From Escherichia phage JoYop, in sequence record OR769032.1: DNA of 64,000 bases; one strand, written 5' to 3'. Position numbers and translations under genes: made by a program. The notes under the pieces are model-generated. The model saw only the letters and a program-made list of their open reading frames with translations, was not told the DNA's origin and searched no databases. Shown here piece by piece: positions 4,481-63,489 of the stretch; position 1 is the stretch's first letter, and each line of letters begins with the position of its first letter.

Positions 4481-5116
4481 TCACAGTTCAGATGCTACAG
4501 TGATTACAGCTTCGATGTTTTCTACCGAGCGTTTAATGTCAAGATACACATTACCATTTTTAGCGATTTTACATGACATTCCGATGTCAGTAAATTTCTG
4601 AATATGATGTTCCATCATTTTGTATCCAAAAATTCGCATATTTCCATTGTTGTTAATTTCAAAATTGCGAATTCCATGAGTACGTTTTTCTAAAATGGCA
4701 AGATAATTACTACGATAAGTTTCAACCTTTTTAAGAACAAATCCATTTTCATCTAAAAGTTTTAACATGAAGTCTTTATCTTCTTCCATATCAGAAGTAA
4801 TCTCACGAGCTTTACGAGTTGCTCGTTTTTTCAGCAGTTCCGGAGCATTTTCTTGTGCGTATAAAGTTGCTGCATTTGAAATAATATCCTGAGCTTCACC
4901 AGTAATGATTAATCCATCACCAGATTTCTCCACCAGGCCTTTTTTAATCAATACCCCAATATTACTATTAACTACTGCATTACCTAAATCTGGATGCACC
5001 TCACGAACTTCTGCAGCTGTAATGAAATCTTTCTTAGCAATGGTAATTAAAATTGCAGCAGTTTTTTCATTCAGAACATCGTTAGAAGCTTTGATGATGT
5101 AAGTTACTTTAGACAT
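4481..5116 (-). CDS. motA: MotA middle-transcription activator
   Basis: 211 aa, same size as T4 MotA; position between arn cluster and gene 52; early promoter immediately upstream. Confidence 0.85.
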   Translation of the reverse strand: MSKVTYIIKASNDVLNEKTAAILITIAKKDFITAAEVREVHPDLGNAVVNSNIGVLIKKGLVEKSGDGLIITGEAQDIISNAATLYAQENAPELLKKRATRKAREITSDMEEDKDFMLKLLDENGFVLKKVETYRSNYLAILEKRTHGIRNFEINNNGNMRIFGYKMMEHHIQKFTDIGMSCKIAKNGNVYLDIKRSVENIEAVITVASEL

Positions 5117-5187
5117 TTTCTAATCTCCGTAATTCTGTATCAGTAGTTGATAGTTGTATAGTACCACAGTATGCTTTGGTTGTAAAC
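5117..5187 (-). promoter_or_regulatory. early promoter plus conserved leader cassette upstream of motA
   Basis: Coding strand GTTTACA-17 bp-TACTAT followed by leader ACAACTATCAACT...GGAG...ATG; contains the 20-mer gttgatagttgtatagtacc (5146-5165). Confidence 0.6.
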
Positions 5188-5218
5188 CGTTTTGTGAAAA
5201 AAATTTTAAAATAAAAAA

Positions 5219-5238
5219 GGGAGAGCCGAAGCTCTCCC
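5219..5238 (-). terminator. intrinsic terminator hairpin (GGGAGAGC-UUCG-GCUCUCCC) plus U-tract
   Basis: Perfect 8-bp stem with tetraloop followed on the - strand by a T-rich run; downstream of gene 52/motA.1. Confidence 0.6.
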
Positions 5239-5243
5239 TAAAA

Positions 5244-5393
5244 TTACTGCATGACTGTGATAACTGTCATGATAACACGTTGAATTCCGAACGCAAGAAG
5301 ACCTCCTGCTACGGCTGGAACAACACCTAAACCCGCCAGTAAAATGCCACCAGATACTAATGCAGCGCTTGTAATACCTATGAATGGACTCAT
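5244..5393 (-). CDS. small hydrophobic membrane peptide (49 aa), motA.1-like by position
   Basis: Manual translation MSPFIGITSAALVSGGILLAGLGVVPAVAGGLLAFGIQRVIMTVITVMQ; start overlaps gene 52 stop (ATGA). Confidence 0.45.
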   Translation of the reverse strand: MSPFIGITSAALVSGGILLAGLGVVPAVAGGLLAFGIQRVIMTVITVMQ

Positions 5394-6718
5394 TTGATTT
5401 CCTCTAAATCTTTGGTGTATTCTGTAACTACATCAGTAGTTTTCCAATATTCGTTCTCTTCTTTTTTAGCTTTAGCTTCTTCAGCAAGTTTCTTTGCTTC
5501 ATCGGAAGTCATATGAAAAATATTCATTCCGACTAGTTTATCAGCATAAGAAGAATACATATCAATTTTAGAAAGTTCTTCAGTCAGTTCTTTGCGAGTT
5601 TTACCCTGTACAACGATTTCACCTGAAATTACTTTCTTAATGAAATGGGCCTTAGCAAAGGCTAAACGAAATGCTGACTCAGTTTCTTTGATTTTGTTAT
5701 CAATTCGTTTTTGGACATAAGTTTTACGAACTTCAACAAAGTCTTTGATTAAATCGACTACATTATCGTAAACTTGAAGCTTTCCTTTCTCATTAATAAC
5801 CGTAATATTCTGAGAACGACGCTCAATCAACCCGAAGTCTTTCATGATTTTTGCATGGCGTTCTTCTTCGTTATCACTCAAAGAGTATTCTTTACGGAAT
5901 TTAATTTTAAAACCAAAACCATGCTCACCGCAAGCATCATCCCATGTAATGAAGCCTTTATCTTCAAGCGGGTCTAAAATTTTGCTCACATAAGTTTCAC
6001 GATCATACTTATACGGAATCTCAGTGATATTCATTTGAGTTCGTGAAGTAAACTTGTATGTTCCGCGAATTTCATATTGTCCATCAATTTCAACGACTTC
6101 ACCGCGAAATTCTGGGAATTCTACTTTCGGTTTAGTTACTTTCTTTCCTTGAAGAGCTTGCAATACAGCTTTCTTGACAGAAGAAACACTATGAGGAAGA
6201 ATGTAAGTTGCATAACCAGTTGCAATACCGGAAACACCATTAAGAAGAACGGTAGGAATAATAGGCAAATAGAAAGCAGGCGGAATGTGTTCTTTATCTT
6301 GATGTACCGGAGCATATTCAGTATCTTTATATACACTATAGAAATTTTTACTTACACGAGCAAAAATATAACGACTTGCCGCTGCTTTTTGAACGGTACG
6401 AGAACCAAAGTTTCCTTGACCATCTAACAGAGGAAAGTTATTATTCCAAGTGTTAGCCATCAAAGCACCTGCGTCTTGCGCAGAGTTTTCACCATGATGA
6501 TATCCAAGGTCCGCTACACCACCTGCAATAGAAGCGAGTTTGTGAAACTTATCTTTATTTCCTCGTGCCAAATCAAGAGCTCGAGCAATAACAAATCGTT
6601 GAACTGGCTTAAATCCATCAATCATATTTGGAATGGCACGATTTTCAACCGTGTACATAGCATAAGCCAATGCTTCATTATCAATGATACTTTTTAAATC
6701 GCGATTATTCAGTTGCAT
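5390..6718 (-). CDS. 52: DNA topoisomerase II medium subunit gp52
   Basis: 442 aa, same size and position as T4 gp52; conserved topoisomerase-type segments. Confidence 0.9.
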   Translation of the reverse strand: MQLNNRDLKSIIDNEALAYAMYTVENRAIPNMIDGFKPVQRFVIARALDLARGNKDKFHKLASIAGGVADLGYHHGENSAQDAGALMANTWNNNFPLLDGQGNFGSRTVQKAAASRYIFARVSKNFYSVYKDTEYAPVHQDKEHIPPAFYLPIIPTVLLNGVSGIATGYATYILPHSVSSVKKAVLQALQGKKVTKPKVEFPEFRGEVVEIDGQYEIRGTYKFTSRTQMNITEIPYKYDRETYVSKILDPLEDKGFITWDDACGEHGFGFKIKFRKEYSLSDNEEERHAKIMKDFGLIERRSQNITVINEKGKLQVYDNVVDLIKDFVEVRKTYVQKRIDNKIKETESAFRLAFAKAHFIKKVISGEIVVQGKTRKELTEELSKIDMYSSYADKLVGMNIFHMTSDEAKKLAEEAKAKKEENEYWKTTDVVTEYTKDLEEIK

Positions 6719-8155: not shown

Positions 8156-8255
8156 AGTAAGCGTTTAATACATCAATCATTAAAACGATTGGGAATATAC
8201 TCAAAACAACTAAAATTATAATTATATTCCATATAGCTTTAACAATCTTTTTCAT
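8142..8255 (-). CDS. tiny membrane peptide (37 aa)
   Basis: Track ORF 8142..8351 trimmed to the ATG after SD GGAGG (MKKIVKAIWNIIIILVVLSIFPIVLMIDVLNAYFGFM); the N-terminal extension in the track is translated promoter/leader. Confidence 0.45.
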   Translation of the reverse strand: MKKIVKAIWNIIIILVVLSIFPIVLMIDVLNAYFGFM

Positions 8256-8313
8256 TTTCTGTTCCTCCGTAGTTGATAGTTGTATAGTACCACAGAGGAA
8301 CAGTCTTGTAAAC
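8256..8313 (-). promoter_or_regulatory. early promoter plus leader cassette (type B copy 1)
   Basis: Coding strand GTTTACAAGACTGTTCCTCTGTGGTACTATACAACTATCAACTACGGAGGAACAGAAA-ATG; 61 bp identical to 61242..61302. Confidence 0.6.
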
Positions 8314-8319
8314 CACTTT

Positions 8320-8418
8320 TTAAAAATATTCGTAATAAATGTGAATACCAATCACTACTGCCGAAACTTGCGCAACCCACCACGCACAAGCAATAAGTAC
8401 AGAATTCAAAATTTTCAT
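8320..8418 (-). CDS. tiny membrane peptide (32 aa)
   Basis: Manual translation MKILNSVLIACAWWVAQVSAVVIGIHIYYEYF with SD GAGG. Confidence 0.3.
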   Translation of the reverse strand: MKILNSVLIACAWWVAQVSAVVIGIHIYYEYF

Positions 8419-8501
8419 AATAACCTCATTACAAAAGTAAATGTTAAACAAATTACCGGAATACTAATTAACCAAACAAAACACCACCATAACGAACTCA
8501 T
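8415..8501 (-). CDS. tiny hydrophobic peptide (28 aa)
   Basis: Manual translation MSSLWWCFVWLISIPVICLTFTFVMRLL; stop overlaps next start. Confidence 0.25.
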   Translation of the reverse strand: MSSLWWCFVWLISIPVICLTFTFVMRLL

Positions 8502-8529
8502 AGTTCAATCTCAACGATTTTCATTTTAC

Positions 8530-8736
8530 TCAATAATCCGCTAAAAGATCAACGATTGCATCACGAAGACATTTATTCGCAATACGTTTAAGAGCAATTT
8601 CAGTTTCAGGCGCATTTCGAATAATCATTGAATTCAATTCAGCTTCGGCAAACTGAAGTTCTTTGACTAATTCAGCTTTATATTTTCCTTGACCTTTCTT
8701 AGCTTTTGCTCGTTTTAATTCAGCTGTAGTAAACAT
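8530..8736 (-). CDS. hypothetical protein (68 aa)
   Basis: Track ORF 8530..8835 trimmed to the ATG after the conserved leader (MFTTAELKRAKAKKGQGKYKAELVKELQ...). Confidence 0.5.
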   Translation of the reverse strand: MFTTAELKRAKAKKGQGKYKAELVKELQFAEAELNSMIIRNAPETEIALKRIANKCLRDAIVDLLADY

Positions 8737-8800
8737 TTTATTCTCCAAATCCGTATCAGTTGATAGTTGTATAGTACCACAGTCCTTGTGGTATGTAAAC
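8737..8800 (-). promoter_or_regulatory. early promoter plus leader cassette (type A)
   Basis: Coding strand GTTTACATACCACAAGGACTGTGGTACTATACAACTATCAACTGATACGGATTTGGAGAATAAA-ATG. Confidence 0.6.
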
Positions 8801-8816
8801 CATTTTGTGAAAATTT

Positions 8817-9374
8817 TTAAATGGAAAGATACCATCCGTTGTAGTTACTTTTTCTTACAACCTTACGAAGGTCTTCTCTATCACCGATGAACTTCGGAGT
8901 GTACTGGATGACACCTGGATGAATTTCTTTAGTGTTGAATATAATTATACAGTCTGCGACCTGATGATTTAGAATGGGCCCTAGATTTATTCCAGAACCG
9001 TACGGATACTCTCCGCTGCATCCTGTTGTTACCGAAATCCAACGAGAGTCAGTTTGATGTGTTTTGACTTCTACTCGAAGACCGCAGTATTTTGGATGTG
9101 CCAAAACATCCCATGCATATGTATACGGGTCATCGACATCTTCTTGACCTTTGTTAACATACCCGCTTAGCCAATCTGCTACAAAAAATTCTGCGTACAC
9201 AGCGATACGGCATCTTTCGATAACTTCTGCCTTATCCTGATTTGGATTTTGCTTTAAAGAATATCTTGCAGTATCAGCAATTTTGACCTTCATTTCACTA
9301 GTCAAGTCACCGTTCGATAGGGTAAATGTCGGAATCTGAAATAGTCTCTGTAGCCCCGGATTCGTTTTCTGCAT
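8817..9374 (-). CDS. denB: endonuclease IV DenB
   Basis: 185 aa, same size and position (next to rIIB region) as T4 denB. Confidence 0.8.
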   Translation of the reverse strand: MQKTNPGLQRLFQIPTFTLSNGDLTSEMKVKIADTARYSLKQNPNQDKAEVIERCRIAVYAEFFVADWLSGYVNKGQEDVDDPYTYAWDVLAHPKYCGLRVEVKTHQTDSRWISVTTGCSGEYPYGSGINLGPILNHQVADCIIIFNTKEIHPGVIQYTPKFIGDREDLRKVVRKSNYNGWYLSI

Positions 9375-9653: not shown

Positions 9654-9669
9654 AAGGGCCGAAGCCCTT
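9654..9669 (-). terminator. terminator hairpin (AAGGGC-UUCG-GCCCUU)
   Basis: Perfect stem with tetraloop; part of a 30-bp block also found at 9880-9910. Confidence 0.5.
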
Positions 9670-9862
9670 ATTTAAATTGTTCAATTCTTTTCTCTAGACA
9701 TTCAGCATAAGATTTCATTGAGATAAACTGTGAAAGCAGTAATTCTTGTTCAACTTCATTAACTGTTAGAAACTTCGTGCTTTCTAAAAATTTGCCCAGT
9801 GCATTAATTTTGAGCATTAATTGTTCGTATTCTTCTTTTACTCGTGCTTGATAACCTAGCAT
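9668..9862 (-). CDS. hypothetical protein (64 aa), predicted helical/coiled
   Basis: Track ORF; ends with the same EQFK-stop-terminator sequence as rIIB. Confidence 0.5.
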   Translation of the reverse strand: MLGYQARVKEEYEQLMLKINALGKFLESTKFLTVNEVEQELLLSQFISMKSYAECLEKRIEQFK

Positions 9863-9879: not shown

Positions 9880-9897
9880 TAAGGGCCGAAGCCCTTA
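9880..9897 (-). terminator. terminator hairpin after rIIB (UAAGGGC-UUCG-GCCCUUA)
   Basis: Perfect hairpin overlapping the rIIB stop codon. Confidence 0.55.
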
Positions 9898-10833
9898 TTT
9901 AAATTGTTCAGTAACGTCTTCAACTACTTCGTATTGGCAGGTACGCATTTTAGCATCGTTGTAATCAATCGGAATTGATACTACATCACGAGGATGTACT
10001 TTAACTTTTACAACTCGGCTGGTTGAACTGCCAAAGTGACGAATATAAGATTTAGAACACACATGCAGACCACGAGAACAAGTTTGTGTATCATCGTCAT
10101 TCACACGAGTACGTGGCATTTTAACTACTTTACCCGGACTGTTATCAAAGGTATTTGAGTGACAGTCAAAGTAATTACTGCGAACTACTTTCCAAGCATA
10201 GAAGTAACCATCTTCTGTAATTTCAATATCGTTTGCTACCAAGAAATCAAAGAGTCGAGATACCGCTTTCTGGCTCGGGTTTTCCAACAGATTTTCCAAG
10301 AACGGAAAATAGAATTCAAAGTTTTCGCCTTTTTCCATCGAGTCAAGAATACGATCAACCAGACCAGACCGTAATTCGATATTTTGATAGAACAAGCTTC
10401 CACCTTCAATTCGAACATCGCCGGAAATATATTTTTCAACAGCGCGACGAACATTAATTTTTTGTGCTGCTTCTTCCAACTTATCCGCTACGAGCAGATT
10501 AAGAATTTCCTGGAAGTTTGAATGAGTGTTAGGAGTTGCGTTATAAGTTACACCATCAACGGTAATTGAAATGAATTTTTTAGATGCATTCCAAATAATG
10601 TCAGATTTAGCAACTGGAGCAATAGCTGCATCGCTCTTAACTGTAACTGTAATGTCACCGCTAATGGTAACTTTGGAGCGCTCAGCTTCTTCAGCATTTT
10701 TCAAAACACGACGGATTGTGTCCACCGATACACCTTGCCAATCAGCCAATTCCTGTTGGGTGTAATTACCACTTGAATACAGTTTAACGATTTCAGCTTG
10801 TTCGTTTTTGGTCAGGCATTTAATATTGTACAT
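9895..10833 (-). CDS. rIIB: rIIB protein
   Basis: 312 aa, MYNIKCLTKNEQAEIVKLYSSG...; same size as T4 rIIB; adjacent to rIIA. Confidence 0.9.
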   Translation of the reverse strand: MYNIKCLTKNEQAEIVKLYSSGNYTQQELADWQGVSVDTIRRVLKNAEEAERSKVTISGDITVTVKSDAAIAPVAKSDIIWNASKKFISITVDGVTYNATPNTHSNFQEILNLLVADKLEEAAQKINVRRAVEKYISGDVRIEGGSLFYQNIELRSGLVDRILDSMEKGENFEFYFPFLENLLENPSQKAVSRLFDFLVANDIEITEDGYFYAWKVVRSNYFDCHSNTFDNSPGKVVKMPRTRVNDDDTQTCSRGLHVCSKSYIRHFGSSTSRVVKVKVHPRDVVSIPIDYNDAKMRTCQYEVVEDVTEQFK

Positions 10834-13261: not shown

Positions 13262-13291
13262 ATTATACCACATCCTTGTGGTAAAGTAAAC
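13262..13291 (-). promoter_or_regulatory. early promoter (GTTTAC -35, TGTGGTATAAT extended -10)
   Basis: Coding strand GTTTACTTTACCACAAGGATGTGGTATAAT upstream of ORF 13033..13236; the -35 overlaps the gene 39 stop. Confidence 0.55.
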
Positions 13292-15108
13292 TACTGGCTC
13301 ATCCATTCTTTGCGAAGGTCAGCATTATCTCCCATGAGCATTTCAAAAAGCTCTTTCCAATTCTCAGGAAGTTTAACAACATCATATACTGGATTTTGAA
13401 TCATCTCACGATATTCAGATTTTTCCAAAGAGCCAAGTCCTTTAATATAACGGATGCTATGTTTAGGTAGAGCATCTTTGGCACTCTCATATTCAGCGAC
13501 TGTATAAAACCATTCTTGTTTTTTACCGACCTGAGCGATGATTACAGGAGTTTTGACAAAGCGAATTCTTCCTTGTTCAAACAGTTCTGGCCAATTACTA
13601 AAAAATCCGAGCAGAGAAGGATAAATGCTTCCTAGACCATCATGGTCAGCATCAGTCATAATAGCAATATTACGATAATTCAAGTTTTCAGCTTTTTCAC
13701 CAAGAACTAGACCAGTGATTGCGCAAATATCAAATAGTTCTTTGTTTTTAAGCATATCGGCATATGACATACCCCAGCTATTAAGAACTTTACCACGCAA
13801 CGGATAACCACCATGAAGTTCTTTATCGCGAACATCAATAAGATATCCGATAGCAGAATCGCCTTCGGTTAAGAACAACGTAGTGTCAGCATCTTTACCA
13901 CAAAGATTCGCTTTAATATGTTTATGAACCTTAGCTTTAGAAGCCTTTTTAGCTGCTTTAGTTTCTGCTGCTTTTTCTGCCGCCAATTTACGAGCTAATG
14001 CTGCTTCAATAATTGGCATTAAAATTGCTTCATTATTTAGAATAGCGCGTGAAATCTTTTTAGCATCAAGTTGAATATGACTACGGATTTCACCAAATGG
14101 AGAAGTCAAACGCTCTTTAGTTTGAGAATCAAATCGCATGTTTTTCATATCACGAACAAACATAACGATAGTCAAACATTCTTTAACACGTGCTTTAGTT
14201 ACATCAATTTTGAACTTACGTTTGATTTGTGGAATAAGGTCTTCGCAAATATCATCCATAACACAATCAATGTGATGGCCACCATTCTTAGTGTGAATGT
14301 TATTCACGTAAGTTAATTGACGAAAACCATCCGGTGAACGACCAACCGCAATAGAACAATTTTCTTGCTCTTGAACGATAGCGTGTTCATCATATTGGCG
14401 TGCATATTTCTTAAAATTACCCTGAACCTTTTTACCATTAAAGGTAAATTGAATATCAGGATAAACTACAGCAAGAGTCTGGAGACGATCTAGTGTAATG
14501 TCAAGATAAACTTGGGATAACTCATTAGTTTCAAATGACATAAAATCAGGAATGAAAGTAACACGAGTTCCTTTCCATTTTCCAGGAATATCTTCCCATG
14601 ATTTATTTTCCATGCCATTTGAACAACGAACTACAATATTATTTTGACCATCACCAGTTTCACCGACAAACATCACAGAAAAAATGTTTGTTAAACTAGA
14701 ACCAACACCGTTCATACCACCGGTGACGCGTTCTTTATCATCACCGAAGTTACCACCTGCTTTTGGAATAGTCCATGCAGCAACAGGACCAGGAATTTCT
14801 TCACCGGTAGGTGTTTTAACCATCGCTTGTGGAATACCGCGACCGTTATCTTCAACTGTTACTTGATTGTTTTTAATAGTAACATTAATTTTATTCGCGA
14901 ATTTAAACTTAGTACGAATACCTTCATCTACTGAGTTATCGATAATTTCATCAATAAGCTTAACAAGACCAGGTACATACTGAACACTTTCCCATTTACC
15001 AAACAGAAAGCGCTCATGCATTTCATTAGCTGAAGAGCCAATGTACATGCCGCTACGCTTTTTGATATGTTCAATATCGCTCAGAATTTTAATTTCATTC
15101 TTAATCAT
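13291..15108 (-). CDS. 39: DNA topoisomerase II large subunit, continuous gene 39 (T4 gp39 plus gp60 equivalent)
   Basis: 605 aa from second Met (MIKNEIKILSDIEHIKKRSGMYIGSS...); GyrB-type ATPase motifs; C-terminus ...PENWKELFEMLMGDNADLRKEWMSQ in one frame. Confidence 0.9.
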   Translation of the reverse strand: MIKNEIKILSDIEHIKKRSGMYIGSSANEMHERFLFGKWESVQYVPGLVKLIDEIIDNSVDEGIRTKFKFANKINVTIKNNQVTVEDNGRGIPQAMVKTPTGEEIPGPVAAWTIPKAGGNFGDDKERVTGGMNGVGSSLTNIFSVMFVGETGDGQNNIVVRCSNGMENKSWEDIPGKWKGTRVTFIPDFMSFETNELSQVYLDITLDRLQTLAVVYPDIQFTFNGKKVQGNFKKYARQYDEHAIVQEQENCSIAVGRSPDGFRQLTYVNNIHTKNGGHHIDCVMDDICEDLIPQIKRKFKIDVTKARVKECLTIVMFVRDMKNMRFDSQTKERLTSPFGEIRSHIQLDAKKISRAILNNEAILMPIIEAALARKLAAEKAAETKAAKKASKAKVHKHIKANLCGKDADTTLFLTEGDSAIGYLIDVRDKELHGGYPLRGKVLNSWGMSYADMLKNKELFDICAITGLVLGEKAENLNYRNIAIMTDADHDGLGSIYPSLLGFFSNWPELFEQGRIRFVKTPVIIAQVGKKQEWFYTVAEYESAKDALPKHSIRYIKGLGSLEKSEYREMIQNPVYDVVKLPENWKELFEMLMGDNADLRKEWMSQ

Positions 15109-15160
15109 CACTTATCCTCGTTTGGTTTCGGGAATATTATACTCCGGTAATCATAAAGCT

Positions 15161-16629: not shown

Positions 16630-16899
16630 TTAATTAAACAGTGGAGCGATGCGTTTCAGAAGAGTAGCAGCACCTTTGGCGAATTTTACATCATGAAAAA
16701 CAGTTTCTTCTTCCGTTACAACACGAGCTTTAATGTTTTCACAATCCCAATTTTTACGAACAATCTTCAAAAGCTGCAGTAAATCTTTACATTCAGCAAT
16801 ATCGATAACACATCCACGAGAATCTTCCATTATCGCACGATAACCATAAGCCATACCATAATCGTTGAAAGATTGTTCGATGATGATTAAGTTTTCCAT
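16630..16899 (-). CDS. hypothetical protein (89 aa)
   Basis: Track ORF 16630..16911 trimmed to the ATG after leader GGAGAATAAA (MENLIIIEQSFNDYG...). Confidence 0.5.
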   Translation of the reverse strand: MENLIIIEQSFNDYGMAYGYRAIMEDSRGCVIDIAECKDLLQLLKIVRKNWDCENIKARVVTEEETVFHDVKFAKGAATLLKRIAPLFN

Positions 16900-16975
16900 T
16901 TTATTCTCCAAGTTGTTTTCTGTATCAGTAGTTGATATTGATATAGTACCATAATCAACTACTGATGTATATAGT
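16900..16975 (-). promoter_or_regulatory. divergent copy of the promoter/leader cassette
   Basis: Coding strand ...GGTACTATATCAATATCAACTACTGATACAGAAAACAACTTGGAGAATAAA-ATG; -35 not canonical. Confidence 0.4.
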
Positions 16976-16997
16976 TTTATGAAAAAAATTTTAAACT

Positions 16998-18013: not shown

Positions 18014-18550
18014 TTAGTCTAAGGTAATAAAGCCTTTTAATTCAGCATGCGATTTGCGGAACATTACTTGGTGCCCACCAATGATAACTTCATCTTCAGG
18101 AACTTCGTATACAGCAAGATAAAATCCTTTAGAAGCTAATTCTTCACGCTCTTCTCGTGTGAACCATCTCATCATATCATATTCACTAGCGAAAGCAAAA
18201 TGATAAAGAGCTATAAACCATCCTGGAATATGATATTCTACTCCAACATAATCTTTCTTGAACTTAGTATTAATTACTATATTAGCGTTTTTAACTAGTA
18301 GTTTATCTTCGTGTGGTAAAGGAATTCTTTTATTATCGCTATGATGCATAAAATTAGGTCTGTCATAACCTACGTGTAATAGCCACTCTTCGCTCCATGA
18401 ATCTATTATACTCCTGTACGGCGTTATTTGAACACAAAGATTTCGACGTATTGTTATAGCATCTTCATAATCAAGAATACTAAATGATGATTCAACACGA
18501 TAAATTTTCATTTTATTATCCTCAGTAGCTATGGTGTTATAATACCACAA
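18014..18550 (-). CDS. hypothetical protein (178 aa)
   Basis: Track ORF upstream of the paralogue pair. Confidence 0.5.
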   Translation of the reverse strand: MWYYNTIATEDNKMKIYRVESSFSILDYEDAITIRRNLCVQITPYRSIIDSWSEEWLLHVGYDRPNFMHHSDNKRIPLPHEDKLLVKNANIVINTKFKKDYVGVEYHIPGWFIALYHFAFASEYDMMRWFTREEREELASKGFYLAVYEVPEDEVIIGGHQVMFRKSHAELKGFITLD

Positions 18551-18574
18551 CTAACCGAGGAAGTAAACAACTTT

Positions 18575-26177: not shown

Positions 26178-26387
26178 TTAAATTACATGATTATTTATAA
26201 TAAATTCTCGCGGAACGTTAAAATACCCGATTTTAGTTAATATAACAACATCGCCGTTAATGATTACCGGAGAATAATCTTCTGGAGCATTAAATTTCCA
26301 ATGGGCTCTAATATTATATCCATCAGAACCAAATGCTCGAGTAGCCGGTCTCCCGGCTTTTTGCCATGCGTAGAAATCAAATTTCAT
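26178..26387 (-). CDS. hypothetical protein (69 aa)
   Basis: Track ORF between gene 56 and soc. Confidence 0.5.
   Translation of the reverse strand: MKFDFYAWQKAGRPATRAFGSDGYNIRAHWKFNAPEDYSPVIINGDVVILTKIGYFNVPREFIINNHVI
26193..26200 (-). promoter_or_regulatory. late promoter TATAAATA upstream of soc
   Basis: Exact TATAAATA on the coding strand ~32 nt upstream of the soc ATG. Confidence 0.55.
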
Positions 26388-26578
26388 TTTGAATGCTCTA
26401 TAATTAATTTTAAAGCTTCTTCACTGACATAAATTTCGTCATGACCTTCTGTAACTTCAACCATACGAAGCTGATTAGTTAAGAGCTCACATACGAGCCC
26501 TTTGTCATAATCTTTAAATAGCTGGTCAATACGTTTCTTGTGGGCTTTCTTAAGCTGGCGTTTATTTAAACGAGCCAT
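26384..26578 (-). CDS. hypothetical protein (64 aa)
   Basis: Track ORF, ATGA overlap with gene 56. Confidence 0.5.
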   Translation of the reverse strand: MARLNKRQLKKAHKKRIDQLFKDYDKGLVCELLTNQLRMVEVTEGHDEIYVSEEALKLIIEHSK

Positions 26579-27096: not shown

Positions 27097-27168
27097 TATT
27101 TTTTCCTTTCAATTCATGGGTTAGTAGATTAATTATACAATAAATATATAAAGCAATAAGGAGGACAT

Positions 27169-29281: not shown

Positions 29282-29328
29282 ACTAGTAGAAGCAAACAGA
29301 CAAATTGCAATAATTGGTGATTTCAGTT

Positions 29329-29511
29329 TCATTCTTCTCCTCCTTCATGTTGATGAACATATTCTTTTTCAAGTCTAGAGCACAAGTTTTCATATTCAAC
29401 TAATAAAAGTGAATCAAGTGCGTTATTTCTATGCTGACACCGTTCTTGTAAAGAATCCATTTCTGAGCGTTGTTCTTGTGTTAATAATTGATAACCTGAT
29501 ACTTTAGACAT
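29329..29511 (-). CDS. hypothetical protein (60 aa)
   Basis: Track ORF trimmed to the ATG after leader GGAGAACAAA (MSKVSGYQLLTQEQRSEMDSLQERCQHRNN...). Confidence 0.5.
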   Translation of the reverse strand: MSKVSGYQLLTQEQRSEMDSLQERCQHRNNALDSLLLVEYENLCSRLEKEYVHQHEGGEE

Positions 29512-29547
29512 TTTGTTCTCCATTTACTCGTTTGTTTTGATAGGTCT

Positions 29548-29576
29548 ATAATAACATGTTTAAAACAAAAGTAAAC
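29548..29576 (-). promoter_or_regulatory. early promoter
   Basis: Coding strand GTTTACTTTTGTTTTAAACATGTTATTAT upstream of ORF 29329..29511. Confidence 0.45.
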
Positions 29577-29830
29577 TATTTTATTTCCTCAAGTTCGTTA
29601 ATCAATAAAAGTTCTCTGACGCTAAAAACAAAGAAAAATGTGTTCCCATCAACCAGAGCATGACCGCTAATAGAACACCCTCTGCGGAATTTAGAAACTT
29701 CACAATCTAGAACTGTAAAGGGTTTTAATCCTATGACTTTAGCTGTGCGTCTATTCAGTTCACAACCACTCGCGAATTTTTCCAAATCTTCTTCTGATTT
29801 AAACTGATATTCTCTATTAACTAGCATCAT
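29576..29830 (-). CDS. hypothetical protein (84 aa)
   Basis: Track ORF with its own early promoter. Confidence 0.5.
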   Translation of the reverse strand: MMLVNREYQFKSEEDLEKFASGCELNRRTAKVIGLKPFTVLDCEVSKFRRGCSISGHALVDGNTFFFVFSVRELLLINELEEIK

Positions 29831-29861
29831 TTTCTTTTCTCCGCGATTAGCTGATAGAATT

Positions 29862-29891
29862 ACTATAACACAACTCTATCAGCTTGTAAAC
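29862..29891 (-). promoter_or_regulatory. early promoter
   Basis: Coding strand GTTTACAAGCTGATAGAGTTGTGTTATAGT. Confidence 0.45.
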
Positions 29892-29914
29892 TACTATTTT
29901 ACTAGCATCAATAA

Positions 29915-30178: not shown

Positions 30179-30320
30179 TGAAAGCTTTAACTAGCGCTTT
30201 ATTAACTTCAGCATATTGAGTAGTAGCCCATTGAACATCATCTTTCATCATTGTGATTTCTTTAGTAAACATGCTTTCATTCTTAAACCACCCCATAAAA
30301 ACTACCTTTACCAATTCCAT
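30138..30320 (-). CDS. dmd: Dmd-like protein (60 aa), antitoxin against RnlA-type toxins
   Basis: 60 aa and immediately next to gene 41 as T4 dmd; own early promoter; assignment by position/size. Confidence 0.55.
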   Translation of the reverse strand: MELVKVVFMGWFKNESMFTKEITMMKDDVQWATTQYAEVNKALVKAFIDDKKVCEVDCRG

Positions 30321-30349
30321 AACAATCTCCTCATTTAACCAACAAGACT

Positions 30350-30379
30350 ACTATACCATAGTCTTGTCAGCTTGTAAAC
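30350..30379 (-). promoter_or_regulatory. early promoter upstream of dmd-like gene
   Basis: Coding strand GTTTACAAGCTGACAAGACTATGGTATAGT; -35 overlaps gene 41 stop. Confidence 0.5.
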
Positions 30380-33334: not shown

Positions 33335-33411
33335 TCATTTTTTCCATAGGCATCATTATATTTTCCTCACTGGTTAAAGATAAAGTAATTATAACACAAT
33401 AAATTTAGGCA

Positions 33412-35794: not shown

Positions 35795-36031
35795 TCAAAT
35801 GCAAGTAGTAATTACACCTGTAGTGCTCACACATGTATTCCCTAATTGAACACCTAAAGATCCGTTAGTATTCATATGAAGATTATCACCAATTTTAGTT
35901 GATACTTTCCCATTCATATGAATAATAACACTAGATTCAATAGGAGTCTGAATATCATTTTCAACATCAATAAATGGAATTGTTGCTAATGCAACTAAAC
36001 AAACTGCTAAGCAACCATAAACAATTTTCAT
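35795..36031 (-). CDS. small secreted protein (78 aa)
   Basis: Track ORF trimmed to the ATG after leader GGAGAACAAA (MKIVYGCLAVCLVALATIPF...); signal-peptide-like N-terminus. Confidence 0.5.
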   Translation of the reverse strand: MKIVYGCLAVCLVALATIPFIDVENDIQTPIESSVIIHMNGKVSTKIGDNLHMNTNGSLGVQLGNTCVSTTGVITTCI

Positions 36032-36095
36032 TTTGTTCTCCAAATCCGTATCAGTTGATAGTTGTATAGTACCATGGAAGAACAGTGATGTAAAC
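36032..36095 (-). promoter_or_regulatory. early promoter plus leader cassette (type A)
   Basis: Coding strand GTTTACATCACTGTTCTTCCATGGTACTATACAACTATCAACTGATACGGATTTGGAGAACAAA-ATG. Confidence 0.6.
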
Positions 36096-36183
36096 AGTTT
36101 TGTGAAAAAATTTTCAATGAATTCTAAAGACCCAGAATCATCTGTTTTTCACAAGTATAGATTTATATTACTTGTATGAAAAA

Positions 36184-36199
36184 GGGACCCGGAGGTCCC
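36184..36199 (-). terminator. terminator hairpin after gene 43 (GGGACC-UCCG-GGUCCC)
   Basis: Perfect 6-bp GC stem downstream of the gp43 stop. Confidence 0.5.
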
Positions 36200-36212
36200 T
36201 AGATTTATTCTA

Positions 36213-47066: not shown

Positions 47067-47116
47067 TTAATATCCTCATTGTTTTGGTTTATTTTACCAA
47101 AAATTTATAAAGCAAT

Positions 47117-60716: not shown

Positions 60717-61244
60717 TTATGCGAGTACCGTCTTTAACCGTTCTTCAAACTTCCGAAGAGTATTTTGGCGTTCAGCTCTTTGCTTTTTGTAAGTTTCAAT
60801 ACGCTCTGAAATGAGAGTGTATCGTTCATTCACTGATTCTTTCATAAAATCAGGAATTTCACGAGAAGCTTTAATCTCGTCAAATTTATCAATAACAGCT
60901 TGCTCTTCAGCAATTAAGTTATCATACATTAAAATATCTTTCTTGATGAACTCAATATCTTCTTGAGTTACACGAGATAATTTAGATGCTTTATCCTTTT
61001 TGTACTGTTCGTTAGTATCACGAGACCAGTGTAATGTACGATTTTTATTCGTATTTTTGTAAATTTCTACAATACCAATCTCATCAATAATAACGATCCA
61101 ATTCCAACGGGATTTGTAAATCTGTCCTCCATCAACCGTAATTTCACCTCCGATTGAGATGTCATTAAAGAACTTGCTTTGTGCTTCTGACTTAAATTTA
61201 CCATCGTTGTAATTTACCAGGTTGAAAATATCTTTAGCATTCAT
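60717..61244 (-). CDS. hypothetical protein (175 aa)
   Basis: Track ORF 60717..61304 trimmed to the ATG after leader GGAGGAACAGAAA (MNAKDIFNLVNYNDG...). Confidence 0.55.
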   Translation of the reverse strand: MNAKDIFNLVNYNDGKFKSEAQSKFFNDISIGGEITVDGGQIYKSRWNWIVIIDEIGIVEIYKNTNKNRTLHWSRDTNEQYKKDKASKLSRVTQEDIEFIKKDILMYDNLIAEEQAVIDKFDEIKASREIPDFMKESVNERYTLISERIETYKKQRAERQNTLRKFEERLKTVLA

Positions 61245-61302
61245 TTTCTGTTCCTCCGTAGTTGATAGTTGTATAGTACCACAGAGGAACAGTCTTGTAA
61301 AC
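61242..61302 (-). promoter_or_regulatory. early promoter plus leader cassette (type B copy 2)
   Basis: 61 bp identical to 8253..8313. Confidence 0.6.
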
Positions 61303-61304
61303 AA

Positions 61305-61619
61305 CTAAAAGAAACTTCTTTCACAATTTTTTCCACTGAACCAGGCGCTCACTGCTTTCTTAGTCTCGGGAGCAGTGTTATCCATAAACCATTCAAAGGC
61401 AGCCTTTTTATGATTCTGGAGGGCTTCTCGGGCTTTAATCTGCTCACGGTCTATTAACACTAACATATGAGCCTTTCTTGTCACCATGGGCTTCTTATGA
61501 TTTTTTGAATACTCCCAATCATTTGTCCATCGCATTGTCGTTGCGAATTGAAGTACAGCTTCTTTAATTTTAGTTTCGTAAATTTCACGAGCCTTTGAGT
61601 ATAACATTATTACCTCCAT
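61305..61619 (-). CDS. hypothetical protein (104 aa)
   Basis: Track ORF. Confidence 0.5.
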   Translation of the reverse strand: MEVIMLYSKAREIYETKIKEAVLQFATTMRWTNDWEYSKNHKKPMVTRKAHMLVLIDREQIKAREALQNHKKAAFEWFMDNTAPETKKAVSAWFSGKNCERSFF

Positions 61620-62409: not shown

Positions 62410-63374
62410 TTTAATAATACCGTTTCAGCAATTTCTTCCCAATGGTTTTTGTCGGTCATAATAAAGTCAGCAAGATAAAGAGCAGTACGCAGTGAAACAT
62501 TGCGTAAACGATTAACATTAACTTTCATCCATGATAATGCTTTATAAGTTTCTTCATCAGAAAGACCACGTTTTTGCATCATGTCAGTTGAAAGAATAAC
62601 ATCTTCAACCCTGACCATAATTTCTTCATTAGTGTGAACACCTAAATCTAAATAAACTGAGCGGGACACTAATGCTTGTAAATGTGGAGCAAGTTTAGTT
62701 CCACGGTCTAATTCACGGTCAATGTCAACGTTTGTGATAAAAACAATCGTTCCTTTAAATTCAAACTCACGCTCAATGCCTTTTTCTTCTAAGTAAGAAG
62801 ATGCAGTGCTCCAGCAGACTTTACGGGTCTCTCCAGTGTCCAGAGCAGCTTTTAGAAGATTAAGAATGTCCATATCAGAGAAAACATCCACATCATCAAT
62901 TAAAAGGACAGAATTCTCTTCACGATTATTCCAGAGCTGCTCATAAAGACCGATACCAGAGATTTTACCATTAATGCTTTTATATTCAATGTATCCAACA
63001 TCATTTGCTTTATTTAAAGCTTTATCTAAAGAATACGTTTTACCAATACCTGCCGCACCAGAGATAATTAATGAACGAATGTTTCCGTTAATAATACCAT
63101 TCGTCATCATTCCCATAACATTAAATCTTTTATTAATGCGGGTTTTCATATCTTCATATGATTCTTTAACTTCTTCAACTTTTACACCATCATATGAAAT
63201 ATCTGATTTGTAAACCCAAACACCGCGACGCTTACCGTCAATTTCAACAAAAACTTTACCATCTCCTTGTGCATCTACCGGAGCATTATCTGGGAACCAT
63301 TCACCTAAGAGCTCAAAAGTTCCAGAGATTTCTTTACCGAAGTAGATACCCTTATTGATAGTTACAGTTTTCAT
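62406..63374 (-). CDS. P-loop NTPase (AAA+-like), 322 aa
   Basis: Track ORF trimmed to the ATG after leader GGAGAACAAA; Walker A GAAGIGKT, Walker B VLLIDDVD. Confidence 0.6.
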   Translation of the reverse strand: MKTVTINKGIYFGKEISGTFELLGEWFPDNAPVDAQGDGKVFVEIDGKRRGVWVYKSDISYDGVKVEEVKESYEDMKTRINKRFNVMGMMTNGIINGNIRSLIISGAAGIGKTYSLDKALNKANDVGYIEYKSINGKISGIGLYEQLWNNREENSVLLIDDVDVFSDMDILNLLKAALDTGETRKVCWSTASSYLEEKGIEREFEFKGTIVFITNVDIDRELDRGTKLAPHLQALVSRSVYLDLGVHTNEEIMVRVEDVILSTDMMQKRGLSDEETYKALSWMKVNVNRLRNVSLRTALYLADFIMTDKNHWEEIAETVLLK

Positions 63375-63438
63375 TTTGTTCTCCAAATCCGTATCAGTTG
63401 ATAGTTGTATAGTACCATAAAGCTTTATGCTTGTAAAC
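63375..63438 (-). promoter_or_regulatory. early promoter plus leader cassette (type A)
   Basis: Coding strand GTTTACAAGCATAAAGCTTTATGGTACTATACAACTATCAACTGATACGGATTTGGAGAACAAA-ATG. Confidence 0.6.
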
Positions 63439-63468
63439 TGTTTTGTGAAAAATTTTTAAAAATAAAAA

Positions 63469-63488
63469 AGGGAGCCCGAAGGCTCCCT
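63469..63488 (-). terminator. terminator hairpin (AGGGAGCC-UUCG-GGCUCCCU) plus U-tract
   Basis: Perfect 8-bp stem with tetraloop followed on the - strand by a T-run. Confidence 0.55.
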
Positions 63489-63489
63489 A

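What the first reader, a model, noticed from the sequence alone, without database searches (positions are those of the whole stretch)
8253..8313. A promoter/leader cassette present in multiple near-identical copies
The 20-mer gttgatagttgtatagtacc (+ strand) occurs six times exactly: 5146-5165, 8272-8291, 8759-8778, 36054-36073, 61261-61280, 63397-63416. A degenerate seventh copy lies at about 16925-16965. On the coding (-) strand each copy is an early promoter (GTTTACA, 17-18 bp, TACTAT) followed by a conserved leader ending in an SD and ATG. Two subtypes exist: 61 bp identical at 8253..8313 and 61242..61302, and a ~38-bp block shared by 8741-8778, 36036-36073 and 63379-63416. Each copy sits in front of a small or unassigned ORF (motA is the exception), so the cassettes may mark recombinationally shuffled gene modules, as described for promoter-stem-loop cassettes in T4-type phages.
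Basis: partly seen in the sequence, partly recalled or inferred. Interest (0 to 1): 0.5.

Follow-up and report, generated by a model that had tools for sequence, protein, structure and literature searches.

The report
T4-type early promoter and leader repeats
The repeated 20-mer is the core of the strong "early" promoters that T4-like phages use to seize the host's RNA polymerase, each with a short leader ending in a ribosome-binding site; this is known T4 biology, though the copies exchange sequence and sit where small genes come and go.

Summary
In detail: six exact copies plus one 3-mismatch copy, against 0 expected by chance. The window is a Tequatrovirus (T4-like phage) segment colinear with T4 asiA/motA through nrdC.11, and T4 carries the same 20-mer at the orthologous sites.

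On the minus strand each copy reads: A/T-rich UP element, GTTTAC (-36..-31), 15-nt spacer, TGGTACTAT (extended -10), start block ACAACT|ATCAAC, a 22-37 nt leader, GGAG, ATG. The 20-mer spans -14..+6. Four leaders end in the published RegB/S1 cleavage consensus, GGAGAAUAAAA or GGAGAACAAAA.

So these are classical T4 early promoters with RegB-sensitive translation starts, which is already known.

Comparison with T4, six other Tequatrovirus genomes, three further Tevenvirinae genera and some viral contigs adds three points:
- The downstream ORFs are polymorphic.
- Several insertions or replacements have a junction in the CTATCAA start block or at the SD-ATG.
- Paralogous copies show gene conversion; the window's ndd.4 copy was overwritten by its nrdC.8 copy over 63 bp.

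Enrichment of indels at these cassettes is not significant (p=0.12). Only 2 of 7 have an abutting PeSL-like terminator.

A side finding is that three of the seven, and other early promoters, lie inside hairpins that would form only in read-through RNA.

The parts
5114..5239 (-). motA early promoter cassette. Intrinsic terminator 5218-5239; UP element about 5188-5211; -35 GTTTAC 5182-5187; TGGTACTAT 5158-5166; 20-mer 5146-5165; predicted +1 at 5151; GGAG 5125-5128; ATG 5114-5116.
   Evidence: The orthologue is identical in T4 at 163632-163651. The motA SD is a known RegB site.
8253..8337 (-). ndd.4 early promoter cassette. -35 8308-8313; TGn/-10 8284-8292; predicted +1 at 8277; GGAG 8265-8268; ATG 8253-8255. 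It is 63-bp identical to the nrdC.8 copy. A hairpin at 8259-8303 pairs the spacer with the SD.
   Evidence: (z = -5.8). In T4, RB14 and six other genomes this locus carries the variant start block TTACCC.
8734..8824 (-). Cassette downstream of denB (the T4 ndd.6 promoter). -35 8795-8800; predicted +1 at 8764; RegB consensus GGAGAATAAAA 8736-8746; ATG 8734-8736. It drives a 68-aa ORF (8530-8736, an RB32ORF266c homologue) that T4 lacks.
16897..16997 (-). Degenerate copy upstream of an 89-aa ORF next to cef. -35 TATATAC 16967-16973; 3-mismatch 20-mer 16931-16950; predicted +1 at 16936; GGAGAATAAAA 16899-16909; ATG 16897-16899. A hairpin at 16924-16966 pairs the spacer with +3..+15.
   Evidence: (z = -4.8). 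The same variant is present in T4 at 6589-6608. The ORF is internally deleted in T4, HP3, Paracelsus and Killian.
36029..36119 (-). Cassette between gene 43 and imm.1. -35 36090-36095; predicted +1 at 36059; GGAGAACAAAA 36031-36041; ATG 36029-36031. It drives a 78-aa ORF (35795-36031) that T4 lacks. The gene 43 terminator lies at 36183-36200.
61242..61326 (-). nrdC.8 early promoter cassette. -35 61297-61302; predicted +1 at 61266; GGAG 61254-61257; ATG 61242-61244. A hairpin at 61248-61292 pairs the spacer with the SD.
   Evidence: (z = -5.3). The T4 nrdC.8 GGAG is moderately cut by RegB in vivo.
63372..63488 (-). nrdC.10 early promoter cassette. Intrinsic terminator 63469-63488; UP element; -35 63433-63438; predicted +1 at 63402; GGAGAACAAAA 63374-63384; ATG 63372-63374.
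18495..18568 (-). Related early promoter (motB.2) without the 20-mer. Its spacer pairs with the leader and SD (GAGGA).
   Evidence: z = -4.9. The Mosigvirus orthologue keeps the hairpin with different arm sequences.
29283..29912 (-). A 630-bp two-ORF module in which each ORF has its own early promoter (-10 ends at 29548 and 29862). One leader carries the fifth RegB consensus site (29511-29521). The module is absent from T4, HP3, Paracelsus and Killian.
30312..30379 (-). Related early promoter upstream of dmd. Its spacer pairs with +1..+13.
   Evidence: z = -4.2.

Best explanation
Each copy is a T4-type early promoter fused to a short 5' leader and a translation start.

**How it works (inferred from sequence and from the T4 literature).**
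- Immediately after infection, unmodified host sigma-70 RNA polymerase binds the A/T-rich UP element, GTTTAC at -36..-31, the TGn extended -10 and TACTAT.
- Transcription starts at the A of ATCAAC. The 20-mer therefore covers -14..+6.
- The resulting mRNA has a 22-37 nt leader and is translated from GGAG-N5-8-AUG.
- In four copies the GGAG is the 5' end of the 11-nt RegB/S1 site (GGAGAAUAAAA or GGAGAACAAAA). The phage endoribonuclease RegB can therefore cut the Shine-Dalgarno sequence and end expression after a few minutes.
- In the motA and nrdC.8 copies the site departs from the consensus, but the T4 orthologues are known to be cut well (motA) or moderately (nrdC.8).

**Why the copies are so alike.** Selection for a near-optimal promoter contributes. 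Short-tract ectopic gene conversion between copies also contributes.

**Consequence for genome structure.** The shared 20-60 bp blocks, and the stereotyped SD-AUG-AAA starts, serve as homology or microhomology at which leader-plus-ORF modules are inserted, replaced or deleted in this plastic early region.
For: **Identity**
- The window is 93-97% identical to Tequatrovirus genomes and colinear with T4.
- T4 has the exact 20-mer before motA, ndd.6, imm.1, nrdC.8, nrdC.10 and e.8, and the same 3-mismatch variant beside cef.
- The frame matches the published consensus: GTTTAC at -36..-31, T at -7, A-rich -40..-44, TGn (measured).

**RegB**
- All five exact GGAGRAYARAA sites in the window (0.36 expected) are early-promoter leaders, and four are in these cassettes.
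- The consensus, the cutting of motA (good) and the cutting of nrdC.8 (moderate) come from Durand 2006.

**Gene conversion**
- The ndd.4 and nrdC.8 copies differ at 6-9 of 61 positions in T4, SH-2, HP3 and Paracelsus, but at 0 in the window.
- The window's ndd.4 copy differs from its orthologues at 4-7 positions. Its nrdC.8 copy differs from its orthologues at 0-2.
- The 6-nt blocks ACAACT and TTACCC swap between the ndd.4 and ndd.6 sites in PaulHMueller, the window and L024.
- ADUt carries the leader variant TAATAC at two loci 27 kb apart.

**Modules**
- The ORF75 insertion upstream of motA has two flanking promoters. Its upstream junction falls in the CTATCAA start block and its downstream junction at the GGAG of the motA leader.
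- Leader-plus-ORF swaps after CTATCAA occur in L019 and L009.
- ORF75 homologues sit at three different loci in three genera. In each case an early-promoter cassette lies immediately before and immediately after the ORF.
- Presence/absence frequencies are given.
Against: - No transcript 5' ends or RegB cuts were measured for this phage. The T4 dRNA-seq start-site tables are not held and GenBank T4 records carry no promoter features.
- Indel enrichment at the seven cassettes is not significant (p=0.12). Indels are common at many gene boundaries in this region.
- Most junctions at cassettes are SD-ATG microhomologies that any T4 gene start could supply.
- None of the 12 highest-ranked of 506 matching records shows a deletion between the two tandem copies 487 bp apart; the remaining records were not inspected.
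- The conversion events are few and were read from about 15 genomes.
Confidence: 0.85

Rival explanations
1. The copies are alike only because each is independently held at the optimum for RNA polymerase and ribosome binding. There is no sequence exchange between copies, and they have no role in gene shuffling.
For: T4 early promoters are known to carry consensus well beyond the two hexamers. All seven sites are positionally conserved between the window and T4. Indel enrichment is not significant.
Against: Multi-nucleotide blocks change together to exactly the paralogue's sequence: ACAACT versus TTACCC, and the 63-bp identity that is specific to the window. A rare leader variant is shared by two loci of one genome. 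The spacers, which are not under a common constraint, differ freely between loci. Insertion junctions fall inside the conserved block.
Confidence: 0.1
2. They are true PeSL-type mobile cassettes. Terminator stem-loop plus promoter units flank ORFans, recombine with one another, and excise as mini-circles that carry genes between phages.
For: The motA and nrdC.10 copies have a GGGAG..CTCCC terminator abutting the UP element. ORF75 is bracketed by promoter cassettes at three loci in three genera, and in Melville the bracketing cassettes share a leader of about 50 nt. The 29283-29912 module has one promoter per ORF.
Against: Four of seven copies have no upstream stem-loop, and a fifth has one only about 90 nt away. 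The promoters are T4-type rather than E. coli-consensus type, and the PeSL authors call the T-even elements analogues. No deletion between the tandem 8272 and 8759 copies appears among the 12 highest-ranked of 506 matching records. Most junctions are ATG microhomologies. Circles cannot be tested here.
Confidence: 0.2
3. The conserved -6..+6 block (ACAACTATCAAC) is an operator for a phage protein that shuts off early promoters. It is not merely a start-site preference of RNA polymerase.
For: The mechanism of early-promoter shut-off is reported as unknown; neither AsiA nor ModA is required. CTATCA recurs downstream of the -10 in about half of the early-type promoters in the window, and also in Mosigvirus and Gelderlandvirus promoters.
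Against: No candidate binding protein was identified. The block varies between subfamilies (ACAACT, TTACCC, AGACCT, ATCAAT). Nothing tested here separates this idea from a polymerase start-site or discriminator preference.
Confidence: 0.08
4. The repeat reflects conserved short antisense ORFs on the + strand that start at the TTG inside the 20-mer.
For: Mechanical + strand ORFs start inside four of the copies: 5154-5330, 36033-36179, 61269-61457 and 63405-63584.
Against: These ORFs diverge immediately after the 20-mer because the spacers differ. They lie antisense to promoters in a region that is otherwise entirely minus-strand coding. No such gene is annotated in the nine relatives whose annotation tables covered these loci.
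Confidence: 0.01

Closest known systems
Bacteriophage T4 early promoters (the 'uber' UP/-35/TGn/-10 class; Liebig and Rueger 1989, Wilkens and Rueger 1996 and Miller 2003 from my own knowledge; Hinton 2010, PMC2988021 and Nolan 2006, PMC1524935 read here)
   Same: The frame is the same: GTTTAC at -36..-31, TGn, a -10 with T at -7, and an A/T-rich UP element. The genomic sites are the same as in T4. The promoters sit before early genes and novel ORFs.
   Different: Nothing essential differs. The window is a different Tequatrovirus isolate in which one copy (ndd.4) has been converted to the nrdC.8 sequence.
PeSL (promoter-early stem-loop) cassettes of RB49 and phi1 (Arbiol et al. 2010, PMC2839356)
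   Same: Both are repeated early-promoter units in hyperplastic regions next to ORFans. Both are associated with insertion, deletion and replacement differences between close relatives. Two copies here have an abutting GC-rich terminator.
   Different: The promoter here is T4-type, not E. coli consensus. Most copies lack the stem-loop. Junctions lie in the start block or at the SD-ATG rather than in or next to the stem-loop. Mini-circles have not been shown. The PeSL authors describe the T-even elements as analogues.
RegB/S1 endoribonuclease target sites (Durand et al. 2006, PMC1702504)
   Same: The 3' end of four leaders is exactly GGAGAAUAAAA or GGAGAACAAAA, placed as the Shine-Dalgarno sequence. 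The motA and nrdC.8 orthologues are experimentally cut in T4.
   Different: The ndd.4/nrdC.8 subtype (GGAGGAACAGA) departs from the A-rich consensus. It can also be masked by a hairpin in longer RNAs.
Promoter-embedded hairpins that mask the translation start in T4 genes e, soc, 49 and I-TevI (Uzan and Miller 2010, PMC3014915)
   Same: The 5' arm lies upstream of the proximal promoter's start site and the 3' arm covers the SD. Only read-through transcripts can fold, and promoter-proximal transcripts stay open.
   Different: In the known cases the proximal promoter is a late promoter, which gives late-only translation. Here it is an early promoter, which would give early-only translation. In three of the hairpin-bearing promoters the 3' arm does not reach the SD.
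Morons of lambdoid phages and integron gene cassettes (as discussed in Arbiol 2010)
   Same: Small accessory ORFs travel together with their own expression signals.
   Different: There is no integrase or attC site. The ORFs are co-oriented with their neighbours. Exchange appears to use the phage's general recombination system on short homologies.

Membership tests
T4-type early promoter | GTTTAC at -36..-31 | tested here: met
   Exact in 6 of 7 copies. The 16931 copy has TATATAC, as does its T4 orthologue.
T4-type early promoter | TGn extended -10 followed by a TAnnnT hexamer, 15 nt after GTTTAC (17 bp between hexamers) | tested here: met
   TGGTACTAT is present in all seven. The consensus scan reports spacer 17 and TG = yes.
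T4-type early promoter | A/T-rich UP element upstream of -37 | tested here: met
   A+T is 75-88% over -60..-37. The motif AAAATTTTTTCACAAAAC is present in 5 of 7.
T4-type early promoter | Orthologous position to early promoter regions of T4 | tested here: met
   The same 20-mer occurs at colinear T4 sites.
T4-type early promoter | Primary transcripts start there within the first minutes of infection | not testable with these tools
   The T4 dRNA-seq tables are not held. motA transcription and translation at 1 min are reported for T4.
RegB/S1 cleavage site | GGA(G) followed by the A-rich 7-mer (GGAGRAYARAA) | tested here: met
   Exact in the 8759, 16931, 36054 and 63397 leaders. motA (GGAGATTAGAA) and ndd.4/nrdC.8 (GGAGGAACAGA) deviate from it.
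RegB/S1 cleavage site | The site is single-stranded | tested here: inconclusive
   Leaders of 5146, 8759, 36054 and 63397 fold no better than shuffles when folded from -36 (z -0.24 to +0.55). The 8272 and 61261 sites are paired only in RNA that includes the spacer. These are predictions only.
RegB/S1 cleavage site | RegB-dependent cleavage in vivo | not testable with these tools
   For the T4 orthologues, motA is cut well and nrdC.8 moderately.
PeSL cassette | [quoted passage not shown] | tested here: not met
   The -35 is GTTTAC(A) and the -10 is TACTAT (9 of 12 to TTGACA/TATAAT). Arbiol et al. state that the T-even elements are T4-type analogues.
PeSL cassette | Adjacent stable GC-rich stem-loop acting as a terminator | tested here: not met
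   It abuts the promoter at only 2 of 7 (5218-5239 and 63469-63488). One more lies 87 nt upstream (36183-36200). The other four have none.
PeSL cassette | Flanks variable ORFans in hyperplastic regions | tested here: met
   All six non-motA ORFs match PHROG families of unknown function. ORFs next to the cassettes occur in about 25-60% of related records.
PeSL cassette | Recombination between copies generates indels, replacements and mini-circles | tested here: inconclusive
   Junctions inside the cassette core are seen at motA, in L019 and in L009. However, enrichment gives p=0.12, and no deletion between the tandem copies appears among the 12 highest-ranked of 506 matching records. Circles are not testable here.
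Promoter-embedded hairpin masking the translation start (T4 e/soc/49/I-TevI type) | 5' arm upstream of the proximal +1, 3' arm covering the SD or AUG, and stability beyond shuffles | tested here: met
   Met for 8272 and 61261 (z -5.8 and -5.3), and for motB.2, T4 regB and T4 denV. Not met for 5146, 8759, 36054 and 63397. In 16931 the 3' arm stops before the SD.
Promoter-embedded hairpin masking the translation start (T4 e/soc/49/I-TevI type) | Translation is blocked on long transcripts and allowed on promoter-proximal transcripts | not testable with these tools
   This needs reporter fusions or ribosome profiling.

The most novel reading that the evidence does not exclude
A sizeable subset of T-even early promoters is built into RNA hairpins. 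The untranscribed -30..-16 spacer encodes the 5' arm, and the leader (often the SD/RegB site) encodes the 3' arm.

Transcripts that read through from upstream would therefore be masked against ribosomes and RegB at that gene, while the promoter's own transcripts stay open. This would restrict translation of the gene to the immediate-early burst. It is the mirror image of the late-only control known for e, soc, 49 and I-TevI.

Alongside this, ectopic gene conversion keeps the promoter cores identical. That would make the -14..+6 block a portable crossover site for leader-plus-ORF modules across Tevenvirinae.

Support:
- 6 of 19 window promoters have p<=0.001 each, summed z = -7.5. Two of the six are the identical ndd.4/nrdC.8 copies.
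- 12 Mosigvirus promoters give summed z = -7.7.
- The orthologous motB.2 hairpins have different arm sequences.
- The sense strand folds better than the antisense strand in 10 of 11 cases.

I could not establish whether the older T4 literature already describes this.
Probability: 0.4. Interest if true: 0.45.

Novelty: already known. Interest (0 to 1): 0.27.

Why it matters
As a promoter finding it is textbook T4 biology, and its main use is to annotate this genome correctly: seven immediate-early transcription units, their predicted start sites, and their RegB sites.

The comparative results give concrete, checkable examples in the T-even phages proper of two ideas that rest mostly on work in RB49/phi1. 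The first is that regulatory cassettes are where accessory genes are swapped. The second is that the cassettes are homogenised by gene conversion.

The promoter-embedded hairpins, if functional, would help explain how some early genes are confined to the first minutes of infection. The T4 literature still describes early shut-off as incompletely understood.

Tried and rejected
- **Metagenome scan.** The pattern GTTTAC-N15-TGGTACTAT was too loose. A handful of the returned loci were T4-like.
- **Annotated promoters in T4 records.** NC_000866 and AF158101 carry no promoter features.
- **T4 dRNA-seq start-site tables.** The held supplement contains only primers and table titles.
- **Older literature.** Miller 2003 and Repoila 1994 are not held.
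- **Rfam at gathering threshold on the whole window.** No match.
- **Covariation in the hairpins across Tequatrovirus orthologues.** Variation is too low. Most of the roughly nine substitutions seen in stems are G-C/A-U to G-U changes that keep sense-strand pairing, two break terminal pairs, and there are no double compensatory changes. This is suggestive only.
- **Indel enrichment at cassette-led gene starts.** 4/7 versus 32/113, p=0.12, not significant.
- **Hairpin versus upstream terminator as alternatives.** No overlap between the two groups, but by my own hypergeometric calculation on the counts p is about 0.11.
- **Predicted deletion product between the tandem 8272 and 8759 copies.** All 12 top-ranked records of 506 are two-piece matches that retain the intervening segment.
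- **Antisense + strand ORFs starting in the 20-mer.** Rejected as mechanical.
- **DNA cruciform reading of the inverted repeats.** Disfavoured because the sense-strand RNA folds are about 5 kcal/mol more stable than the antisense folds.
Full report

Yes. The 20-mer GTTGATAGTTGTATAGTACC occurs exactly at 5146, 8272, 8759, 36054, 61261 and 63397. A 3-mismatch copy lies at 16931-16950. None is expected in dinucleotide-preserving shuffles.

The repeat finder groups the same sites into families of 44-88 nt. Exact extension gives these blocks:
- 63 identical bases at 8251-8313 = 61240-61302.
- 39 identical bases at 8741-8779 = 36036-36074 = 63379-63417.
- 51 identical bases at 36025-36075 = 63368-63418.

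**2. Anatomy on the minus strand**

Each copy reads, in order:
- an A/T-rich stretch (75-88% A+T over 24 nt, mostly AAAATTTTTTCACAAAAC);
- GTTTAC (TATATAC in the degenerate copy);
- a 15-nt spacer that differs between loci;
- TGGTACTAT;
- ACAACT then ATCAAC (ATCAAT then ATCAAC in the degenerate copy);
- a leader;
- GGAG, then 5-8 nt, then ATG.

In the published T4 numbering, GTTTAC is -36..-31 and the last T of the -10 is -7. On that numbering the 20-mer spans -14..+6, and the predicted start is the A of ATCAAC. The predicted starts are at 5151, 8277, 8764, 16936, 36059, 61266 and 63402. Leaders are 22-37 nt long. These start sites are inferred, not measured.

**3. Where the window comes from**

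The window is a Tequatrovirus. It is 93-97% identical to several hundred T4-like genomes and colinear with T4 from about 160.2 kb, through the T4 coordinate origin, to 55.9 kb. The genes run from asiA/motA through rIIB, rIIA, 39, dda, 41, uvsX, 43, 45, 46, 47, 55, nrdD and nrdC to nrdC.11.

T4 itself has the exact 20-mer at the orthologous places:
- before motA, ndd.6, imm.1, nrdC.8 and nrdC.10;
- before e.8, which lies just outside the window;
- the same 3-mismatch variant beside cef.

The seven copies are therefore the counterparts of sites in the T4 early region. Their sequence matches the T4 early-promoter consensus. Reviews describe that consensus as "uber" UP/-35/TGn/-10 promoters with additional regions of consensus, and it has been reported upstream of many novel ORFs in T4-like genomes.

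The six non-motA downstream ORFs match only PHROG families of unknown function. The 322-aa nrdC.10 homologue has weak, sub-threshold AAA-ATPase similarity.

**4. The leader**

Durand et al. (2006) defined the RegB/S1 target as 11 nt of single-stranded RNA. The degenerate consensus is GGAGRAYARAA, and the most frequent T4 form is GGAGAAUAAAA. They reported motA as a good substrate and nrdC.8 as moderately cut.

The window contains five exact matches to GGAGRAYARAA against 0.36 expected. All five are the SD of an early-promoter leader, and four belong to these cassettes.

The cassette is thus a complete immediate-early expression unit: a very strong promoter, a short unstructured leader, and a ribosome-binding site that RegB can destroy. 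The sequence match is shown here. The cleavage itself is inferred from the T4 orthologues.

**5. Stem-loops**

Strong intrinsic terminators abut the UP element of only the motA and nrdC.10 copies. They are GGGAGAGC-TTCG-GCTCTCCC plus T6 at 5218-5239, and GGGAGCC-TTCG-GGCTCCC plus T6 at 63469-63488. The gene 43 terminator lies 87 nt upstream of the 36054 copy. The other four copies have none. The PeSL architecture (terminator plus promoter) therefore applies to a minority.

**6. Are the downstream ORFs variable and bounded by the cassettes?**

I chained alignments of the window against T4, ADUt, SH-2, HP3, Paracelsus and Killian. They give about 27 indel loci, and four of these touch the seven cassettes.

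- **(a) motA.** HP3, Paracelsus and Killian carry 322 extra bp. The two flanking alignments overlap by 23 bp at window 5144-5166, which is the 20-mer. The insert is a new leader plus a 75-aa ORF plus a second, different early promoter. The upstream promoter keeps motA's UP, -35 and spacer, then switches after CTATCAA. The downstream junction is at the GGAG of the motA leader. Both ends of the insert share TATCAAATAAATGAACTGAAAC.
- **(b) After the 8759 copy.** The locus has four states: nothing (T4), ORF266c (window), ORF266c plus ORF269c (RB14, ADUt, SH-2, PaulHMueller, Killian), and ORF269c alone (HP3, Paracelsus). All junctions are at (A/T)AAATGAAA.
- **(c) and (d) T4 deletions.** T4 lacks the 78-aa ORF after the 36054 copy (junction ATGAAAAT). 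T4, HP3, Paracelsus and Killian have an internal deletion of the 89-aa ORF after the 16931 copy, starting 8 nt into the ORF.

Viral contigs add two more promoter-retained swaps of leader plus ORF after CTATCAA, at the nrdC.10-type promoter (L019) and at a trna.4-type promoter (L009).

Among roughly 510 related records, presence is as follows:

| ORF | Records |
|---|---|
| ORF266c | 117 at >=90% identity |
| ORF75 | 138 at >=95% identity |
| 89-aa ORF | 260 at >=95% identity |
| 78-aa ORF | 325 |

ORF75 homologues also occur in other genera, at different loci:
- In Melville (Gelderlandvirus) the homologue lies between the nrdC.11-like and nrdC.10-like genes.
- In Metamorpho (Jiaodavirus) it lies after the tRNA genes.

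Each is immediately preceded and followed by an early-promoter cassette. In Melville the cassettes bracketing the two-ORF module share a leader of about 50 nt.

**7. Limits of the shuffling claim**

- With a crude gene model, 4 of 7 cassette-led starts have an indel breakpoint within -95..+12, against 32 of 113 other starts (odds ratio 3.4, p=0.12). Indels are common at gene boundaries throughout this region.
- Most cassette junctions are short microhomologies at the SD-ATG-AAA start. Many T4 genes share that feature.
- A synthetic query representing the deletion expected from recombination between the tandem 8272 and 8759 copies matched 506 records. All 12 top-ranked records were two-piece matches that retain the intervening segment, and the rest were not inspected.

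The cassettes are places where modules are exchanged. I have not shown that they are preferred places.

**8. Gene conversion between copies**

- The ndd.4 and nrdC.8 cassettes differ at 9, 6, 7 and 6 of 61 positions in T4, SH-2, HP3 and Paracelsus, but at 0 in the window.
- The window's ndd.4 copy differs from its eight orthologues at 4-7 positions. Its nrdC.8 copy differs from its orthologues at 0-2. The ndd.4 copy was therefore overwritten from nrdC.8, 53 kb away. One viral contig (L024) shares this state.
- The block downstream of the -10 is TTACCC at ndd.4 and ACAACT at ndd.6 in most genomes. It is TTACCC at both sites in PaulHMueller and ACAACT at both in the window.
- ADUt has the leader variant TAATAC at both the ndd.6-locus and imm-locus cassettes. 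Elsewhere TAATAC is seen only at the imm locus.
- Paracelsus and L131 have a chimeric leader at the ndd.6 locus.

These are multi-nucleotide, templated changes. Independent mutation does not explain them.

**9. Side finding: promoters inside hairpins**

In three of the seven copies (8272, 61261, 16931) the -30..-16 spacer is complementary to the leader. RNA from -36 to just past the ATG folds at -20 to -23 kcal/mol, with z = -4.8 to -5.8. The other four copies fold no better than shuffles.

The same holds for other early promoters: motB.2, dmd and the promoter at 29862 in the window; regB and denV in T4; and two promoters in Mosigvirus.

- Across 19 window promoters, six have p<=0.001 against spacer shuffles, and the summed energy is 7.5 sd below the null. 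Two of the six are the identical ndd.4 and nrdC.8 copies, so five are independent.
- Across 12 Mosigvirus promoters the summed energy is 7.7 sd below the null.
- In ndd.4, nrdC.8, motB.2, regB and denV the 3' arm covers the SD.
- The motB.2 orthologues of the two genera keep the hairpin with different arm sequences.
- The sense strand folds better than the antisense strand in 10 of 11 cases, with 23 G-U pairs against 9. This favours an RNA structure over a DNA cruciform.

Because the 5' arm lies upstream of +1, only read-through RNA can fold. This is the design known for e, soc, 49 and I-TevI with late promoters. Structure is also known to protect RNA from RegB.

Within Tequatrovirus, variation is too low for a covariation test. 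Among the 19 promoters, none of the six with a strong hairpin also has a strong upstream terminator. My hypergeometric calculation on those counts gives p of about 0.11. The function is inferred, and I could not check whether the older T4 literature already describes it.

**10. Verdict**

The finding is real and correctly read as an early promoter plus leader. It is a known kind of element, at sites already present in T4. The shuffling idea is supported by specific events and by gene conversion, but not by a significant enrichment. The elements are analogues of PeSLs rather than members of that family. Interest is low to moderate.

Noticed in passing
window 9654-9683 and 9881-9910: An exact 30-bp direct repeat, AAGGGCCGAAGCCCTTATTTAAATTGTTCA. 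On the minus strand it comprises the last codons of a gene plus a GGGCTTCGGCCC (UUCG-loop) terminator hairpin. It is shared by the 3' ends of rIIB and denB.1 and so brackets the denB.1 ORF. Related hairpins occur at 15153, 38966, 41136, 45840 and 49485. It might be a second kind of repeat bounding an ORF module.
   Followed up: no
window 13291-15111, 26199-26615, 27137-27158, 33322-34269, 47057-47082, 51850-51870, 53146-53149: Relative to T4, the window lacks the gp60/mobA split of topoisomerase gene 39 (it has a single 606-aa ORF), segF, dam, mobB, mobC and the nrdD intron with I-TevII. segA plus beta-gt is replaced by a 282-aa ORF that relatives annotate as beta-alpha-glucosyltransferase.
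   Followed up: partly
window 8736, 16899, 29511, 36031, 63374 (minus strand): All five exact matches to the RegB/S1 consensus GGAGRAYARAA (0.36 expected) are the SD of an early-promoter leader immediately before an ATG.
   Followed up: yes
window 29283-29912: A 630-bp module of two small ORFs (84 and 64 aa), each with its own early promoter. It is present in the window, ADUt and SH-2, and absent from T4, HP3, Paracelsus and Killian. It lies between 61.4 and the sp promoter.
   Followed up: partly
window 61690-62409: A 239-aa ORF between the nrdC.9 and nrdC.10 homologues. It is present in the window and SH-2 but absent from T4, HP3 and Paracelsus as a 732-bp indel.
   Followed up: no
L029 (HP3) about 2556-2780; L158 (Melville) 1495-1731; L159 (Metamorpho) 1495-1731: The 75-aa ORF inserted upstream of motA in 138 Tequatrovirus records has homologues at two other genomic loci in Gelderlandvirus and Jiaodavirus. 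An early-promoter cassette lies immediately before and after it each time. The Melville CDS annotated at 1394-1498 overlaps that promoter and is probably spurious.
   Followed up: partly
L157 (Mosigvirus AlbertHofmann) 3123 and 3444: Two near-identical early promoters in tandem (shared GCTTCAAACATGATATTATAGACCTATCAAAACAAA) precede motA and the small ORF upstream of it. They resemble the motA-proximal promoter of HP3, Paracelsus and Killian. This hints that the motA-proximal promoter and ORF75 region of those phages came from another genus.
   Followed up: no
window about 8496-8525 (minus strand); T4 166993-167019: An 8-codon mini-ORF (MKIAEIEL in T4, MKIVEIEL in the window) ends in ATGA, overlapping the ndd.6 start. 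In T4 the cassette's ATG is the start of this mini-ORF. This suggests translational coupling rather than a direct start of ndd.6.
   Followed up: no
L003 12735-12805 (T4 regB promoter) and L003 15345-15420 (T4 denV promoter): The T4 regB and denV early promoters also lie inside hairpins that pair the spacer with the SD (z = -4.75 and -3.05). regB's own SD is a known RegB site, and denV is reported as poorly cut.
   Followed up: partly
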